Origin: Candidatus Pacearchaeota archaeon
GTDB taxonomy: Archaea; Nanobdellota; Nanobdellia; Pacearchaeales; GW2011-AR1
Assembly (NCBI GenBank): GCA_018303755.1
Contig: JAGVXO010000006.1
Span: 1,140-65,139, forward strand
Reading direction: 5' to 3'
Length of the DNA: 64,000 nucleotides
Shown here: one piece after another, positions 6,707 through 57,431 of the stretch
Numbering within the stretch: the stretch's first letter is position 1
Layout: each line of letters opens with the position of its first letter
The notes under the pieces: model-generated
What the model saw: the letters and a program-made list of their open reading frames with translations, nothing else
Told to the model about the DNA's origin: nothing
Databases searched by the model: none
Program-made: the position numbers and the translations under genes

Positions 6707-6746
6707 GAAAAGATTTTGAATGGATGGAGTTATGGGATGTTTAATA
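6707..6746 (+). repeat. IGR3B C-block fragment
   Basis: GAAAAGATTTTGAATGGATGGAGTTATGGGATGTTTAATA, immediately adjacent to 108-bp repeat copy A. Confidence 0.5.
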
Positions 6747-6848
6747 CTTGTGAAAAATCTCCAATCTTTAGATTGGAGTTAAAATGTATAGATTTTTCCC
6801 GGTTCTCCCAAAACCCAAACACAAACTCCACACTTTAGTGCGGGTATA
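6741..6848 (-). repeat. 108-bp repeat, copy A (last 22 codons of rnp3, stop, hairpin and T-run)
   Basis: It is identical to 57225..57332 at 105 of 108 positions by hand alignment. Confidence 0.9.
6752..6778 (-). terminator. hairpin plus T-run after the rnp3 stop
   Basis: On the minus strand, CTCCAATCT-AA-AGATTGGAG (9-bp stem) is followed by ATTTTTC, directly after the TAA. Confidence 0.5.
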
Positions 6849-7282
6849 TTGTCTGTTGCCATGCCTAAAGTCAGCAAAAGCGCGCGCATATTTTCTTTGT
6901 CTTTTGAGTTAACAAGAACAATTCTTGTTTTATTTTTTCTGCATAATTTGATATTTTGGATAATTCTTGAAAGATAAAATGCTTTTTGCTCTTTATTTAA
7001 GTTAAGTAGTTTTGAAATATTAATCCCTATTGCAATGTTATTTTTTAATGCTAATTTGCATAGAACATTATTTAATCCAGAATCTCTCTGGTCAAGCCGT
7101 TCATTTTTTCCAGAGTATTCAATGTCAGTCAAATAATCGCAGTATTTTCCCTCAATAATTTTTCTGTTAAATTCTGCATCTTTGGCAGAAACTGCTGTTT
7201 TAACTCCTTTTTTTGACAGTTCAATAAATTTAGTCCTGACTTCATTTAGACTATTACTATCAATTAAAACAATTTTTTCCAT
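6779..7282 (-). CDS. rnp3: RNase P protein component 3 (Rpp30 family)
   Basis: GLNNVLCKLALKNNIAIGINISKLL...RIVLVNSKDKENMRALLLTLG aligns by eye with the archaeal Rpp30 core. Start chosen at MEKIVLID; the ORF extends to 7393 but then overlaps the divergent gene. Confidence 0.6.
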   Translation of the reverse strand: MEKIVLIDSNSLNEVRTKFIELSKKGVKTAVSAKDAEFNRKIIEGKYCDYLTDIEYSGKNERLDQRDSGLNNVLCKLALKNNIAIGINISKLLNLNKEQKAFYLSRIIQNIKLCRKNKTRIVLVNSKDKENMRALLLTLGMATDNIPALKCGVCVWVLGEPGKIYTF

Positions 7283-37985: not shown

Positions 37986-38271
37986 ATATTCTTAAACAGC
38001 AAAGAATATTTTATAAACATAGGTAATTAACTGAAATAAACAATAGTCATTTTATAAGGGTAACATAATAGAAAGATTTAAATACTAGGCATACATGGAT
38101 ATTTTATCACCTCTTTTTCCCCATTAGAGGTAATTCAACACTCTTTTTGAACGTTGGATTCCCTCTTCTCGGGGTTCTAATTTAATAATTAAAAAATTTT
38201 ATATATCCACTTAATCTTAAATTAATATGGCTCATTTTAATATAATTATAGAAAAAGATAAAAAGAAGAGT

Positions 38272-38481
38272 TTATTTCCCTTTAAACTCAGTATAATGGC
38301 ATTTTCCACAATATGCCCTGTTTTTTGCCTGCATAAGAAACACGCCTTGCCCGCACCTAGGGCAGAAATCGCTTCGTGTTATCTTGCTTCCTTCAATTTT
38401 ATATTTTGAATATTTTTTGCTTGTCGGCTTATTTCTATGCGGCTTTTTGCCTTGTTTAACACCTGTTTTTTTCTTTGCCAT
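38272..38481 (-). CDS. rps27ae: 30S ribosomal protein S27ae
   Basis: The zinc ribbon is [24 protein letters not shown]. Confidence 0.9.
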
Positions 38482-38777
38482 TATTTCTCTCCTGCCTGTG
38501 ATTTTTTAGCTTCTTCCTGCATTTTTTTTCTTTCTTTGCGCGTTATTACTTCATATTTAACAGCATATTCCGGCTTTTCATAAACTTTTGCAGTTATAAT
38601 AAATTCCTTTGAGCCAAAATTTGACTTAATTTTTTCTATAACAATTCCCTCTTTTTCAGCTTTGTATTTTTCAGACAGCTTGTCAATTACACTCTGTTTT
38701 GATGGAATAGTATTGCTATTTATAGAAAGTATAACCTCTTTTCGATGCATTATTGTATTATTTTTTTCCTGTTCCAT
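38481..38777 (-). CDS. rps24e: 30S ribosomal protein S24e
   Basis: [32 protein letters not shown]...[14 protein letters not shown]. Start chosen at MEQEKNN, abutting the upstream stop. Confidence 0.9.
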
Positions 38778-38778
38778 T

Positions 38779-38988
38779 TTATTTTCCTTTTTGGCAGTAA
38801 TCCGCCTTTTTATCAAGCTTTAGATTTTTTGCAATAACCGATAATTCGGGATTAAAAATTATCACTCTTCCTCTCACTTTGTCCGTTACTACCCTCTCCA
38901 TAGATGCTTTCTTCTTTTTTGTTTCTTTAACTTTCTCCTCACTCATTTCTTCTGCTTTTTCGCTTTTTTCAATAGTTTCTTGTTCCAT
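38779..38988 (-). CDS. spt4: Spt4 / RNA polymerase subunit E''-like protein lacking zinc-ribbon cysteines
   Basis: The C-terminal VRGRVIIFNPELSVIAKNLKLDKKADYCQKG aligns with the Spt4 core (W.G.viv.nPe.SeiAk..gi...g.Yal.v). The position between rpo7 and rps24e is the canonical one. The N-terminus is acidic/Lys-rich with no CxxC. Confidence 0.55.
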   Translation of the reverse strand: MEQETIEKSEKAEEMSEEKVKETKKKKASMERVVTDKVRGRVIIFNPELSVIAKNLKLDKKADYCQKGK

Positions 38989-38989
38989 T

Positions 38990-39262
38990 TTACGGCCTTA
39001 CTTTTGAATAATTTGCCTTATTCTGAACATAAGCTATCAACTTGCCAGGCGTATTAATTTTAGCATAATCTTCTTTCGACATATCAACTGCAAATTCTTC
39101 TTCAATTTCTATTATTACTTCCGTAATATCCAGTGAATCTGCTCCTAATTCTTCAAATGGTTTATTGTTTTCAAATTTTTTCTTCTCAATTTTTTCTGCA
39201 ATTATCTCTCTAATTTTTAATTCTATGCCTTCTCTGCTTATTCTTTCTGTTTCTGTGCTCAT
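38990..39262 (-). CDS. acyl carrier protein (phosphopantetheine-binding)
   Basis: EELGADSLDITEVIIEIEEEF is the classical ACP DSL motif plus helix II. The protein is 90 aa, with an ATGA overlap with the rpo7 stop. Confidence 0.85.
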   Translation of the reverse strand: MSTETERISREGIELKIREIIAEKIEKKKFENNKPFEELGADSLDITEVIIEIEEEFAVDMSKEDYAKINTPGKLIAYVQNKANYSKVRP

Positions 39263-39861
39263 TTTTTCTTTGTTTTCTTTGTTTTACTTGCCTCTGTTTT
39301 TTCAGGCGCTTCTTTTACTTTTTTCTCTTTTCTCTTTTCTTCCTCAATCCATTCAATTTTTCCAAGTCCGGGCTGTCTCATTGTAAGCCCAATTTTCAAC
39401 TCCCCAAGCTTAAAGCTTATTGCAACAATTCTTGCAATGCAGGCATCTCCTTTTTTCAGAGTTTTCTTGCCTGATTTTCCTACAAGGGTATTTGTCTTTG
39501 AAAAGCTGACATAATCTTCCATTGTCTGGCTTATATGAATCATTCCACGCGCAGCTCCGAGATTAATAAACGCCCCGAAATTTGTTATTTCTTCAATAAC
39601 GCCATAAATAATCTCCTGCATTTCGGGTTTCCAGATTACCAACTGAAAATTTGATTTGTAATATGCTGCGCCGTCGCCAGGAATTATTATGCCTTCAGCT
39701 ATTTCACTCACTCCTGCAACTGCAACAACCATTCCAAGTTCTTTATCAAAGTGGGTAGTATAGCTCTCTCTTAACTGCTGTTCAACAGCTTCCCGAGTAG
39801 GAAGCCCGAATAATCTCGGCTCTACCCTTATAAAATCTTCGACGTCAATTAAATAGAACAT
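39259..39861 (-). CDS. rpo7: DNA-directed RNA polymerase subunit Rpo7 (E')
   Basis: MFYLIDVEDFIRVEPRLFG... is followed by the S1 domain GVIEEITNFGAFINLGAARGMIHISQ. Confidence 0.88.
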   Translation of the reverse strand: MFYLIDVEDFIRVEPRLFGLPTREAVEQQLRESYTTHFDKELGMVVAVAGVSEIAEGIIIPGDGAAYYKSNFQLVIWKPEMQEIIYGVIEEITNFGAFINLGAARGMIHISQTMEDYVSFSKTNTLVGKSGKKTLKKGDACIARIVAISFKLGELKIGLTMRQPGLGKIEWIEEEKRKEKKVKEAPEKTEASKTKKTKKK

Positions 39862-39906
39862 TTCTTTAATAGAGATAAATCGGGGTTTATAAAGTTTATC
39901 AGCGCC

Positions 39907-43312: not shown

Positions 43313-43387
43313 GAATAGATTTATAATTAACAAAAATAGCATATTTGTATTGGATAAAGAAGAGTTAAATAAAATACCTTCTCTAAT

Positions 43388-43459
43388 GGAGCTGTAGTTC
43401 AATGGTTAGAATGTTGGTCTCCAGAACCAGTGATGGGGGTTCGATTCCCTCCAGCTCCA
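43388..43459 (+). tRNA. tRNA-Trp (anticodon CCA)
   Basis: Hand-folded. The acceptor is GGAGCTG/CAGCTCC, the anticodon arm TTGGT-CTCCAGA-ACCAG, the T arm GGGGG-TTCGATT-CCCTC, and the discriminator A. Confidence 0.9.
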
Positions 43460-43460
43460 T

Positions 43461-43535
43461 ATAATCCTGCGCCCACTTTTTATTTTGCAAATTCTTAATC
43501 TGTTTATTCCTTGGCTCTTTAGATTTTTTAAGATA
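43461..43535 (+). repeat. IGR3B partial copy (A/B blocks), forward, directly after tRNA-Trp
   Basis: ATAATCCTGCGCCCACTTTTTATTTTGCAAATTCTTAATCTGTTTATTCCTTGGCTCTTTAGATTTTTTAAG. Confidence 0.55.
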
Positions 43536-43573
43536 ATATTCAAAGAATAAAAGAAATAGGGGATTTAAAAAAA

Positions 43574-43766
43574 TCCCCTCACCAGGAATCGAACCTGGGA
43601 TCTCTCGGGTTCTGCACGAACATTTGGCTAATCAGGCTTCATTTTTATCCGAATTCGGAACATCTGCCCTAGTTAACTTACAACATCATAAGGAGATGTC
43701 ATAAGAAGAACCATTGGTTCTTTTTATTTCTACAGCCAAGCGCTCTAACCACTGAGCTATGAGGGG
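43574..43766 (-). tRNA. tRNA-Tyr (anticodon GTA) with 120-nt intron at the canonical 37/38 position
   Basis: Exon 1 is 43766..43730 (CCCCTCA TA GCTC AGTGGTTA GAGC G CTTGG CTGTAG). The intron is 43729..43610. Exon 2 is 43609..43574 (C CCGAG AGATC CCAGG TTCGATT CCTGG TGAGGGG A). It has the archaeal-type C1:G72 pair. Confidence 0.8.
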
Positions 43767-43789
43767 ATTATTAAGGATATGAAGCCGTG

Positions 43790-43799
43790 TTTTTAAAAG
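43790..43799 (-). promoter_or_regulatory. candidate TATA box for tRNA-Tyr
   Basis: The minus-strand sequence CTTTTAAAAA is centred about 28 nt upstream of the tRNA 5' end. Confidence 0.35.
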
Positions 43800-43818
43800 T
43801 TATTATTGCTTGAATAAC

Positions 43819-43940
43819 GGCGCGCTGCGGGCGCGCCTTTTTATAATGGCGCTTCGCGCTTGTTTTATTTTTCAAATCTGCTATCCATTCGTACATTGGC
43901 TCTTTAAAATTTTTTAATTGTTAGCAAATTTTCTAACCAT
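43819..43940 (+). repeat. extra GC hairpin plus IGR3B partial copy (A/B blocks), forward
   Basis: GGCGCGC-TGCGG-GCGCGCC (43819..43837) is followed by TTTTTATAA. Then comes TGGCGCTTCGCGCTTGTTTTATTTTTCAAATCTGCTATCCATTCGTACATTGGCTCTTTAAAA. Confidence 0.75.
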
Positions 43941-47670: not shown

Positions 47671-47761
47671 TAAAAACCACCTGCGGGTTTTTATAATCCT
47701 GCATGTGTGATTTAGTTTTCCTATCCTGCATGTGTATTTGAGTGTTCCATCGATTCTCTCA

Positions 47762-57194: not shown

Positions 57195-57224
57195 CTTGAT
57201 GAAGTGCTTGATATTTTTTAATGA

Positions 57225-57332
57225 TTAATACTCGTGAAAAATCTCCAATCTTTAGATTGGAGTTAAAATGTATAGATTTTTCCCGGTTCTCCCAAAACCC
57301 AAGCACAAATTCCACACTTTAGTGCGGGTATA
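57225..57332 (-). repeat. 108-bp repeat, copy B (intergenic, downstream of ppsA)
   Basis: It is a near-identical copy of 6741..6848. The rnp3 reading frame is retained only as a 23-codon stub behind an upstream stop. Confidence 0.9.
57237..57262 (-). terminator. same hairpin plus T-run within repeat copy B
   Basis: The sequence is identical to 6752..6778. Confidence 0.35.
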
Positions 57333-57431
57333 CTCAAATGGTTTTGTGATATTTAAAACAAATATTATACAAACTTCCTGTCTTTTAATTTCTAAGAAAA
57401 TATTTTTATACTTCAAATTGTTAAAAACATT

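What the first reader, a model, noticed from the sequence alone, without database searches (positions are those of the whole stretch)
38990..39262. Acyl carrier protein gene embedded in the rpo7-spt4-rps24e-rps27ae operon
The 90-aa product carries an unmistakable ACP core (EELGADSLDITEVIIEIEEEF, with the phosphopantetheine Ser in DSL).

Its ATG overlaps the rpo7 stop (ATGA) and its stop abuts the spt4-like start. It is therefore translationally coupled inside one of the most conserved archaeal information-processing operons.

Archaea generally lack ACP and ACP-dependent fatty-acid synthesis. No ACP synthase, KS, AT or other FAS/PKS/NRPS gene is present in this window. The partner and function of this carrier protein in a reduced archaeon are unclear. 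Possibilities include a lipid-scavenging or remodelling role, or a moonlighting role as seen for mitochondrial ACP.
Basis: partly seen in the sequence, partly recalled or inferred. Interest (0 to 1): 0.65.

Follow-up and report, generated by a model that had tools for sequence, protein, structure and literature searches.

The report
Bacterial-type acyl carrier gene in Pacearchaeote operon
A small DPANN archaeon (Pacearchaeota) carries a real, bacterial-type acyl carrier protein gene wedged between two transcription genes, but only this one lineage has it, and the spot often holds unrelated small genes in relatives, so it is a curiosity, not a new system.

Summary
Window 38990-39262 (minus strand) encodes a 90-aa protein. 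It passes Pfam PP-binding (E 2.9e-12), has Ser43 in GADSLD, and models as a four-helix ACP (TM 0.82-0.86 to AcpP structures).

Its ATG overlaps the rpo7 stop (ATGA). Its TAA lies 1 nt before a zinc-less Spt4-like gene, followed by rps24e and rps27ae.

GenBank already names it "acyl carrier protein [Candidatus Pacearchaeota archaeon]" (MBS3099715.1).

It is an orphan. Among about 15 billion proteins nothing outside its own cluster exceeds about 50% identity. The nearest hits (40-49%) are AcpP-like; the ones I could place are bacterial. None of the 80 most similar GTDB species loci (Rpo7 61-85% identical) has an ACP near rpo7.

In 24 of 77 of those species the rpo7-spt4 junction holds at least 150 nt, and 22 of the 24 carry an unrelated, tightly coupled ORF. 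So the position looks like a permissive slot and is not evidence of a link to transcription.

The 64 kb contain no PPTase, KS, AT, Fab or Pls gene. The rest of the genome could not be searched.

Best reading: a horizontally acquired, constitutively co-expressed carrier protein whose partners lie elsewhere. Its function is inferred, not shown. Interest is low to moderate.

The parts
38990..39262 (-). Acyl carrier protein gene, 90 aa, bacterial AcpP-like. It is a lineage-specific single-gene insertion.
   Evidence: - Pfam PP-binding E=2.9e-12.
- PDB ACP matches.
- AF2 four-helix model with TM 0.82-0.86 to ACP structures.
- NCBIfam AcpP models are the best hits but fall below their cut-offs.
- GenBank MBS3099715.1 is named 'acyl carrier protein'.
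39134..39136 (-). Codon of Ser43, the predicted 4'-phosphopantetheine attachment site in GADSLD at the start of helix II.
   Evidence: Invariant D42-S43 (100%) and L44 (99%) in an alignment with 75 homologues. The AF2 model starts helix II at residue 43. The modification itself was not tested.
39259..39861 (-). rpo7 (rpoE'), RNA polymerase stalk subunit. It is the first gene of the unit, and its TGA stop overlaps the ACP ATG (ATGA).
   Evidence: Pfam SHS2_Rpb7-N E=1.7e-13 and S1 E=2.1e-7. Junction sequence read.
39886..39893 (-). TATA-box-like TTTATAAA, with 24 nt between it and the rpo7 ATG. Candidate archaeal promoter giving a leaderless or near-leaderless transcript. This is inferred.
   Evidence: Read directly from the sequence. 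No tool here models archaeal promoters.
38779..38988 (-). Spt4-like gene, 69 aa. It lacks the four-Cys zinc ribbon and starts 1 nt after the ACP stop.
   Evidence: - NCBIfam Spt4 (NF041664) E=3.8e-6, 26.7 bits against a cut-off of 50, covering residues 32-65 only.
- Pfam Spt4 E=1.3e-3.
- The nine closest relatives have the same zinc-less form.
38481..38777 (-). rps24e, 98 aa from the ATG, starting 1 nt after the spt4 stop.
   Evidence: Pfam Ribosomal_S24e E=6.3e-15. The gene call agrees.
38272..38481 (-). rps27ae, 69 aa. Its ATG overlaps the S24e stop (TAATG), with a GGAGAG Shine-Dalgarno-like motif upstream.
   Evidence: Pfam Ribosomal_S27 E=4.7e-14. Junction read.
38251..38268 (-). T-rich tract (CTTCTTTTTATCTTTTTC) just after the rps27ae stop. 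Candidate archaeal terminator marking the end of the unit. This is inferred.
   Evidence: Read directly from the sequence.

Best explanation
This is a real, intact gene for a bacterial-type (AcpP-like) acyl carrier protein. One Pacearchaeota lineage acquired it horizontally as a single gene, and it sits between rpo7 and spt4.

**Expression (inferred from anatomy)**
- A TATA-like box lies upstream of rpo7 and a T-tract follows rps27ae.
- All internal gene junctions are 1 nt or shorter, or overlap.
- The ACP is therefore co-transcribed with rpo7, spt4, rps24e and rps27ae. It has no Shine-Dalgarno motif of its own, so it is probably translated by termination-reinitiation at the ATGA overlap. That would give constitutive, moderate expression.

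**Mechanism (inferred from family knowledge)**
- A phosphopantetheinyl transferase encoded elsewhere converts apo-ACP to holo-ACP on Ser43.
- The thiol then carries acyl groups to bacterial-type partner enzymes through the conserved acidic helix II.
- In a reduced, probably symbiotic archaeon the most plausible use is handling or transfer of scavenged or partly synthesised fatty acyl chains, not bulk de novo synthesis.

**Position**
- The location reflects a permissive insertion slot, not a functional tie to transcription.
For: **Shown**
- PP-binding domain above the Pfam threshold.
- The best PDB and NCBIfam matches are all type II FAS ACPs.
- The AF2 model has four helices, TM(target) 0.82-0.86 and rmsd 1.2-1.6 A to P. 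falciparum, E. coli, Aquifex and Thermotoga ACPs.
- The query matches 19 of the 27 columns that are at least 70% conserved among 75 homologues. These include F36, L39-D45, E48, E54, E56 and F57, that is the DSL motif and recognition helix II, while the termini are diverged.
- Only its own 90% cluster is close. The next best hits are 40-49% identical AcpP-like proteins.
  - Named hits are Clostridia.
  - P0063 and P0072 sit next to a ketoacyl synthase.
  - P0062 follows a bacterial gltX.
- None of the 80 most similar GTDB species loci has an ACP within +/-4 kb of rpo7. The nine closest have rpo7 followed at once by spt4.
- In 24 of 77 relatives the same junction holds at least 150 nt. In 22 of these it carries an unrelated ORF of 54-121 aa that starts at or within 5 nt of the rpo7 stop. 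This compares with 4/76 and 11/73 for the next two junctions.
- GC 0.30 and GC3 0.22 lie within the host range of 0.33+/-0.03 and 0.25+/-0.05.
- Identical arrangement in 24 contigs read, with 36 contigs on record.
Against: - No PPTase, KS, AT, Fab, Pls or acyl-ACP synthetase gene in the 64 kb. The rest of the genome could not be searched, so no partner is known.
- It scores below the curated AcpP cut-offs (TIGR00517 55.9 against 70.45; NF002150 58.5 against 66).
- Three non-conservative changes fall at conserved positions: D to K at 63, A to Y at 66, V to P at 72.
- Net charge is only -5.5 against -15 for E. coli AcpP.
- All contigs are clonal, so no polymorphism was available to test purifying selection.
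- Transcription, translation and phosphopantetheinylation are all unobserved.
Confidence: 0.6

Rival explanations
1. Neutral passenger. The ACP gene was recently captured in a permissive slot and has no working partners. It is expressed as apo-protein without function, on its way to loss.
For: - Present in a single species-level lineage only.
- The slot accumulates unrelated ORFans in relatives.
- No partner gene within 64 kb.
- Below the AcpP cut-offs, with three non-conservative substitutions and reduced acidity.
Against: - The ORF is intact, and conservation is concentrated on the DSL motif and helix II while the rest has diverged to below 50% identity. That is the pattern expected under selection on the PPTase and partner surface.
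- Composition is fully host-like.
- The ATGA and 1-nt junctions are exact, in a streamlined genome where useless DNA is usually lost.
Confidence: 0.15
2. A carrier protein for a pathway other than fatty acids. Examples are an aminoacyl, D-alanyl or peptidyl carrier, or a polyketide or glycolipid O-acylation carrier, working with an adenylating ligase encoded elsewhere.
For: - Stand-alone PP-binding proteins serve many pathways.
- The protein fails the AcpP equivalog cut-offs.
- Several glycosyltransferases and a PAP2-family gene lie in the window at 18.9-26.3 kb.
Against: - The top matches by sequence and by fold are all FAS-type AcpP.
- DltC models score only 17-21 bits against cut-offs of 52-68.
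- The window has no adenylation, condensation, DltA, DltB or DltD gene.
Confidence: 0.15
3. Moonlighting structural subunit. The ACP fold has been recruited as an accessory protein of the RNA polymerase stalk (Rpo4/7), of Spt4/5 or of the ribosome, as mitochondrial ACP is in complex I, the Nfs1-ISD11 complex and mitoribosome assembly.
For: - It is translationally coupled between rpo7 and spt4.
- Fold matches include ACP chains in the ISD11-Nfs1 complex (E. coli and mitochondrial ACP) and in complex I.
- Many relatives place other small proteins at the same spot.
Against: - The slot holds unrelated proteins, including membrane proteins, and is empty in the nine closest relatives, so position alone carries little information.
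- No LYR-family protein appears in the window's Pfam annotation.
- There is no precedent in archaea.
Confidence: 0.07
4. Assembly or binning artefact: a bacterial fragment mis-joined into an archaeal contig.
For: The nearest homologues that could be placed are bacterial.
Against: - The same 273-nt gene, with a 4-nt overlap on one side and a 1-nt spacer on the other, occurs in 24 contigs read from several separately assembled samples held by ENA, with further copies on record from JGI, Logan and NCBI.
- Its composition is host-like.
Confidence: 0.01

Closest known systems
Bacterial type II FAS acyl carrier protein AcpP (for example E. coli AcpP; Aquifex aeolicus ACP, PDB 2EHS; Thermotoga ACP, 6LVT)
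   Same: - Size of the core and four-helix fold.
- GADSLD motif with the Ser at the start of helix II.
- Acidic helix II (E48, E54-E56, F57).
- Best sequence and fold matches.
   Different: - Only about 36-42% identical to the solved ACPs and at most 49% identical to any known ACP; below the NCBIfam AcpP cut-offs.
- Roughly 10-residue N-terminal and 7-residue C-terminal extensions, and loop I shorter by 2-3 residues.
- K63, Y66 and P72 at conserved D, A and V positions.
- Net charge -5.5 instead of about -15.
- Not next to any fab or pls gene. It is encoded in an archaeon between rpo7 and spt4.
Sporadic archaeal ACPs acquired from bacteria (Lombard, Lopez-Garcia and Moreira 2012, reviewed in PMC3533463) and bacterial FAS genes in DPANN (PMC8204110; PMC10936187)
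   Same: A bacterial-type ACP-pathway component found in an archaeon, patchily distributed, best explained by horizontal transfer. DPANN archaea are already known to hold FabG, FabI, FabZ and other bacterial lipid genes.
   Different: - In the reviewed cases ACP comes together with ACP synthase and MCAT. Here no processing gene was found in 64 kb.
- The gene stands alone inside an information-processing operon.
- The DPANN reports concern mostly Woesearchaeota and clusters with MEP or FAS genes, not this locus.
Mitochondrial ACP (NDUFAB1 / ACPM), structural subunit of complex I, the Nfs1-ISD11 complex and a mitoribosome assembly module
   Same: Same fold and motif. These chains appear among the matches. 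It is a precedent for an ACP embedded in machinery unrelated to lipid synthesis.
   Different: That role depends on LYR-motif partner proteins that bind the acyl-phosphopantetheine. None is known in archaea and none was seen in this window. Position is the only hint here.
E. coli rpmF-plsX-fabHDG-acpP-fabF cluster (from established knowledge)
   Same: An ACP gene co-transcribed with a ribosomal protein gene, giving growth-linked expression.
   Different: There the ACP is surrounded by its fab and pls partners. Here the operon has no lipid gene at all.

Membership tests
PP-binding / carrier protein superfamily (Pfam PF00550) | Profile match above the curated gathering score | tested here: met
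   47.1 bits against 20.8, E=2.9e-12, profile positions 2-67 of 67.
PP-binding / carrier protein superfamily (Pfam PF00550) | Conserved Ser in a (D/G)S(L/I) motif at the N-terminus of helix II | tested here: met
   G40-A41-D42-S43-L44-D45. D and S are invariant in 75 homologues. Helix II starts at residue 43 in the model.
PP-binding / carrier protein superfamily (Pfam PF00550) | Four-helix bundle fold | tested here: met
   AF2 model with mean pLDDT 76 and helices at 10-25, 43-57, 63-68 and 72-86. Foldseek TM(target) 0.82-0.86 and rmsd 1.2-1.6 A to ACP crystal structures.
PP-binding / carrier protein superfamily (Pfam PF00550) | Ser carries 4'-phosphopantetheine in vivo | not testable with these tools
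   Needs mass spectrometry or an in vitro PPTase assay.
AcpP, the fatty-acid-synthesis ACP (NCBIfam TIGR00517 / PRK00982 equivalogs) | Score above the curated equivalog or subfamily cut-off | tested here: not met
   - TIGR00517: 55.9 against 70.45.
- NF002150: 58.5 against 66.
- NF002148: 56.8 against 71.
- For comparison, the neighbours P0063 and P0072 pass, at 113.5 and 76.1.
AcpP, the fatty-acid-synthesis ACP (NCBIfam TIGR00517 / PRK00982 equivalogs) | Genomic association with fab or pls genes (fabD, fabG, fabF, plsX) | tested here: not met
   None found in the 64-kb window. The rest of the genome was not searchable.
AcpP, the fatty-acid-synthesis ACP (NCBIfam TIGR00517 / PRK00982 equivalogs) | Strongly acidic protein (pI about 4) with an acidic recognition helix II | tested here: inconclusive
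   The acidic residues of helix II are kept. Overall pI is 4.87 and charge -5.5, at the upper edge of the homologues' range (5th-95th percentile 4.05-4.93).
AcpP, the fatty-acid-synthesis ACP (NCBIfam TIGR00517 / PRK00982 equivalogs) | A holo-ACP synthase (AcpS or Sfp, PF01648) in the same genome | not testable with these tools
   None in the window: there are no precomputed Pfam hits, and phmmer with AcpS and Sfp sequences recalled from memory gave only noise, E>0.1. Other contigs of this genome could not be retrieved.
DltC, D-alanyl carrier protein | Match to the DltC equivalog models and dltA, dltB, dltD neighbours | tested here: not met
   NF003464 20.8 bits against 68 and TIGR01688 17.1 against 52.35. 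No dlt genes in the window.
Mitochondrial-type structural ACP | LYR-motif partner protein that binds the acyl-phosphopantetheine | tested here: not met
   No Complex1_LYR-family hit among the window's gene products. Absence from the whole genome was not tested.

The most novel reading that the evidence does not exclude
The rpo7-spt4 junction of Pacearchaeota and Woesearchaeota is a dedicated slot for lineage-specific small proteins made in step with the RNA polymerase stalk and Spt4. In this lineage a bacterial ACP fold has been co-opted as such an accessory factor. It might couple acyl-CoA or phosphopantetheine status to transcription, as mitochondrial ACP couples acyl status to complex I, Fe-S and mitoribosome assembly.
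Probability: 0.05. Interest if true: 0.75.

Novelty: new member of a known kind. Interest (0 to 1): 0.3.

Why it matters
- **If functional:** the gene would show that at least one Pacearchaeote uses ACP-linked acyl chemistry. That bears on how DPANN archaea with little lipid biosynthesis build or remodel membranes, and on how far the archaeal/bacterial "lipid divide" is blurred by gene transfer.
- **Why caution is needed:** it is a single, already-annotated gene in one lineage, with no partner in view. On its own it adds one more case to the known pattern of bacterial genes in DPANN.
- **The more general by-product:** in these archaea the rpo7-spt4 junction is a recurrent landing place for tightly coupled small genes. 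Embedding in a conserved operon should therefore not be read as functional linkage.

Tried and rejected
1. **Close relatives of the ACP.** The word-index search and the full HMMER scan of 1.84 billion representatives found nothing closer than about 50% identity outside its own cluster. No donor and no archaeal sister could be named, and a tree from a 90-aa protein at 40-49% identity was judged uninformative.
2. **Conservation of the insertion.** None of the 80 most similar GTDB species loci has an ACP near rpo7, tested with phmmer and with an ACP HMM run at --max. The one hit, at E=0.006, fell on an S24e ORF and is noise.
3. **Selection from polymorphism.** All contigs are 99.95-100% identical and the ACP gene has no variant site. 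The only cluster variant, P0314, is an ACP-spt4 frameshift fusion on a single 1.5-kb contig, so it is a deletion or an assembly error.
4. **Compositional sign of recent transfer.** None; GC and GC3 are host-like.
5. **Viral origin.** No relative in IMG/VR.
6. **PPTase or a second carrier protein in the window.** None.
7. **Identity of ORFs inserted at the same junction in relatives.** Ten of them have no Pfam family, and none resembles ACP.
8. **Whole-genome partner search.** Not possible.
9. **ACP standing in for the lost Spt4 zinc ribbon.** Rejected, because the nine closest relatives also lack the ribbon but have no ACP.

Full report
**1. The observation**

- The ORF at window 38990..39262 lies on the minus strand and encodes 90 aa: MSTETERISREGIELKIREIIAEKIEKKKFENNKPFEELGADSLDITEVIIEIEEEFAVDMSKEDYAKINTPGKLIAYVQNKANYSKVRP.
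- It matches Pfam PP-binding end to end: E=2.9e-12, 47.1 bits against a gathering score of 20.8.
- It matches 106 distinct PDB sequences, all of them acyl carrier proteins. The best is Aquifex ACP 2EHS at E=2.2e-12.
- NCBIfam ranks the fatty-acid-synthesis AcpP models first, but every one falls below its curated cut-off. TIGR00517 scores 55.9 against 70.45 and NF002150 scores 58.5 against 66. DltC and other specialised carriers score far lower.
- An AlphaFold2 model (mean pLDDT 76) has the four ACP helices, with Ser43 at the start of helix II. It superposes on P. falciparum, E. coli, Aquifex and Thermotoga ACPs at TM 0.82-0.86 and rmsd 1.2-1.6 A.
- The family assignment is therefore secure at the level of the carrier-protein superfamily, with AcpP as the nearest kind. 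It is not secure at the level of an AcpP equivalog.

**2. Anatomy of the locus**

Read on the minus strand, the order is:

1. A TTTATAAA box at 39893..39886, with 24 nt between it and the rpo7 ATG.
2. rpo7 (39861..39259).
3. The ACP, whose ATG overlaps the rpo7 TGA (ATGA).
4. TAA, one base, then the ATG of a 69-aa Spt4-like gene (38988..38779).
5. One base, then rps24e (38777..38481).
6. A TAATG overlap into rps27ae (38481..38272).
7. A T-rich tract (CTTCTTTTTATCTTTTTC).

- Pfam and NCBIfam confirm Rpo7, S24e and S27ae. Spt4 is confirmed for its C-terminal half only, and below the cut-offs.
- No junction has room for a promoter or terminator. Co-transcription and translational coupling of the ACP are therefore strong inferences, though neither was observed.
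- The ACP start has no Shine-Dalgarno-like motif upstream, so reinitiation at ATGA is the likely mode of translation. This is inference.

**3. Whose genome, and is the arrangement real**

- The protein is GenBank MBS3099715.1, "acyl carrier protein [Candidatus Pacearchaeota archaeon]". Its neighbour Rpo7 is MBS3099716.1, and the Spt4-like gene is a "hypothetical protein" with tag J4463_00665.
- The protein is on record on 36 contigs. The 24 read (5 places shown) come from separately assembled groundwater samples and carry the identical arrangement.
- All are 99.95-100% identical to the window at the nucleotide level.
- GC (0.30) and GC3 (0.22) of the gene lie within the window's gene-wise range of 0.33+/-0.03 and 0.25+/-0.05.
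- A chimeric assembly is excluded.

**4. Relatives of the protein**

- The word-index search of 5.8 billion clusters found only its own cluster. The next hits are 38-56% identical over 51-79% of the query, and the named ones are Clostridia.
- The exhaustive HMMER scan of 1.84 billion 50%-identity representatives found 2592 hits at E<=1e-3 but only one, the protein itself, below 1e-30. The best single-domain hits are 40-49% identical.
- Contexts of the nearest hits:
  - P0063 and P0072 are canonical AcpPs that sit immediately upstream of a ketoacyl synthase.
  - P0062 (48% identical, and sharing the TPGxLIAYV stretch) overlaps the end of a bacterial-type gltX.
- The gene is therefore of bacterial type, with no identifiable donor. 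It is as far from every sampled ACP as ACPs of different phyla are from each other.
- Against 75 single-domain homologues it matches 19 of the 27 columns that are at least 70% conserved.
  - The matches are concentrated in F36, L39-D45, E48, E54, E56-F57, E64-D65, T71, G73 and Y78.
  - The mismatches are I25, E38, T47, I51 and M61 (mostly conservative) and K63, Y66 and P72 (not conservative).
- Its net charge is -5.5, against -15 for E. coli AcpP.
- The modification motif and the recognition helix are preserved while the rest has drifted. This is the pattern expected for a carrier still recognised by a PPTase and partner enzymes, but it is indirect evidence.

**5. Is the insertion conserved?**

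- Rpo7, unlike the ACP, has many close relatives. Dozens of clusters are 75-85% identical, and the named ones are mostly annotated Pacearchaeota or Nanoarchaeota.
- I fetched the 80 most similar loci from GTDB species representatives, with Rpo7 61-85% identical. I located PIN, Rpo7, Spt4, S24e, S27ae and ScpA in each.
- None has an ACP within about 4 kb of rpo7, by phmmer or by an ACP HMM with filters off.
- In the nine loci closest by Rpo7 identity (L008-L016, 72-85%) spt4 starts within a few bases of the rpo7 stop.
- The ACP is therefore most simply a gain on the terminal branch leading to this organism.

**6. The junction is a variable slot**

| Junction | Species with at least 150 nt between the genes |
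|---|---|
| rpo7 to spt4 | 24 of 77 |
| spt4 to rps24e | 4 of 76 |
| rps24e to rps27ae | 11 of 73 |

- In 22 of the 24 rpo7-spt4 cases the space holds an ORF of 54-121 aa. It starts at the rpo7 stop (about half by the same ATGA overlap) or within 5 nt of it.
- Ten of these ORFs were scanned and have no Pfam family.
- Three pairs are homologous to each other: L021/L026, L033/L055 (small membrane proteins) and L027/L086. This argues that they are real genes.
- The ACP is the only one with a recognisable domain.
- In this clade, then, the position between rpo7 and spt4 repeatedly accepts unrelated small genes and couples them to rpo7. It should not be taken as evidence that the ACP works with the transcription machinery.
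- The ACP-spt4 junction (GTAAAATGGAA) resembles the rpo7-spt4 junctions of relatives (for example AAATAAAATGGAA in L011). This fits an insertion just upstream of the old rpo7 stop, but that reading is speculative.

**7. Partners**

- Precomputed Pfam annotation covers window 5.5-64 kb. NCBIfam covers the ORFs of the first 5 kb.
- Neither shows a PPTase, KS, AT, Fab, Pls, adenylation or LYR protein.
- phmmer with AcpS and Sfp sequences recalled from memory gave only noise, and the ACP HMM found no second carrier.
- Lipid- or envelope-related genes present are two GT4 and two GT2 glycosyltransferases, a PAP2_C protein, a VTT/DedA protein and BacA. None of them depends on ACP.
- The rest of the genome could not be reached with the tools at hand. 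This is the main gap.

**8. What is known**

- Most archaea lack ACP, ACP synthase and MCAT. The few that have them gained them from bacteria, and archaeal fatty-acid synthesis is thought to be ACP-independent (PMC3533463).
- Bacterial fatty-acid-synthesis genes have been reported in DPANN archaea:
  - Woesearchaeota, next to MEP-pathway genes (PMC8204110).
  - FabG, FabI and FabZ in oxygen-deficient-zone DPANN MAGs (PMC10936187).
- I found no paper that mentions an ACP between rpo7 and spt4. That is absence from the searched library only.

**9. Verdict**

- The gene is a lineage-specific, horizontally acquired, bacterial-type ACP that is almost certainly co-expressed with rpo7 and spt4.
- I think it most likely works as a phosphopantetheinylated acyl carrier with partners encoded elsewhere (confidence about 0.6 for the whole statement). 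Only the fold, the motif and the anatomy are shown.
- Rivals are a functionless passenger (0.15), a carrier for a non-fatty-acid pathway (0.15) and a moonlighting structural role (0.07).
- It is a new member of a known kind, already annotated in GenBank, and of low to moderate interest (0.3).
- The by-products may be of more general interest than the ACP itself. They are the variable rpo7-spt4 slot and the zinc-less Spt4 of this Pacearchaeota subclade.

Noticed in passing
window 38779-38988 (-); loci L008-L016: The Spt4-like protein lacks the CxxC...CxxC zinc ribbon. A Lys/Glu-rich stretch takes its place and only the C-terminal half is kept. The nine closest GTDB relatives share this form, while more distant Pacearchaeota and Woesearchaeota loci have a canonical 61-63-aa zinc-ribbon Spt4. 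GenBank calls it a hypothetical protein.
   Followed up: partly
loci L017-L086, between rpo7 and spt4: 24 of 77 related species have at least 150 nt between rpo7 and spt4. In 22 of these the space holds an unrelated ORF of 54-121 aa coupled to the rpo7 stop, often by an ATGA overlap. Ten were scanned and have no Pfam family, and three pairs are homologous to each other. This junction is far more variable than spt4-rps24e (4/76) or rps24e-rps27ae (11/73).
   Followed up: partly
window ~6741-6852 and ~57224-57335 (+); L004 593-723: An intergenic direct repeat of about 110 nt, 95-97% identical, containing the hairpin CTCCAATC-TTTA-GATTGGAG. A third copy lies at a different place in a strain-variant contig. 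It has no Rfam match, and its fold is only mildly better than shuffles (z=-1.9). It could be a small mobile element or a non-coding RNA.
   Followed up: partly
P0314 (JGI contig of 1554 nt), corresponding to window ~38900-39262: The only variant in the ACP's 90% cluster is a 109-aa protein: ACP residues 1-85 fused to a frameshifted reading of spt4. This means a deletion across the ACP-spt4 junction, or an assembly error, on a single short contig.
   Followed up: partly
L004 1-1541 versus window beyond 47721: One contig of the same population departs from the window beyond position 47721. It carries SecD/F and ribosomal protein L15e genes in place of the window's genes, which indicates a strain-level rearrangement next to the tRNA-Gly and tRNA-Val genes.
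   Followed up: no
window 43370-43937 (+): ARAGORN calls a permuted 'tmRNA*' that overlaps tRNA-Trp. Rfam finds only the tRNA. This is almost certainly a false positive.
   Followed up: partly
L090 101-1572: The nearest single-domain homologue of the ACP (P0062, 48% identical) overlaps the stop of a bacterial gltX by 4 nt. This is a second case of an ACP gene whose start overlaps the end of an information-processing gene, here in an uncultured bacterium.
   Followed up: partly
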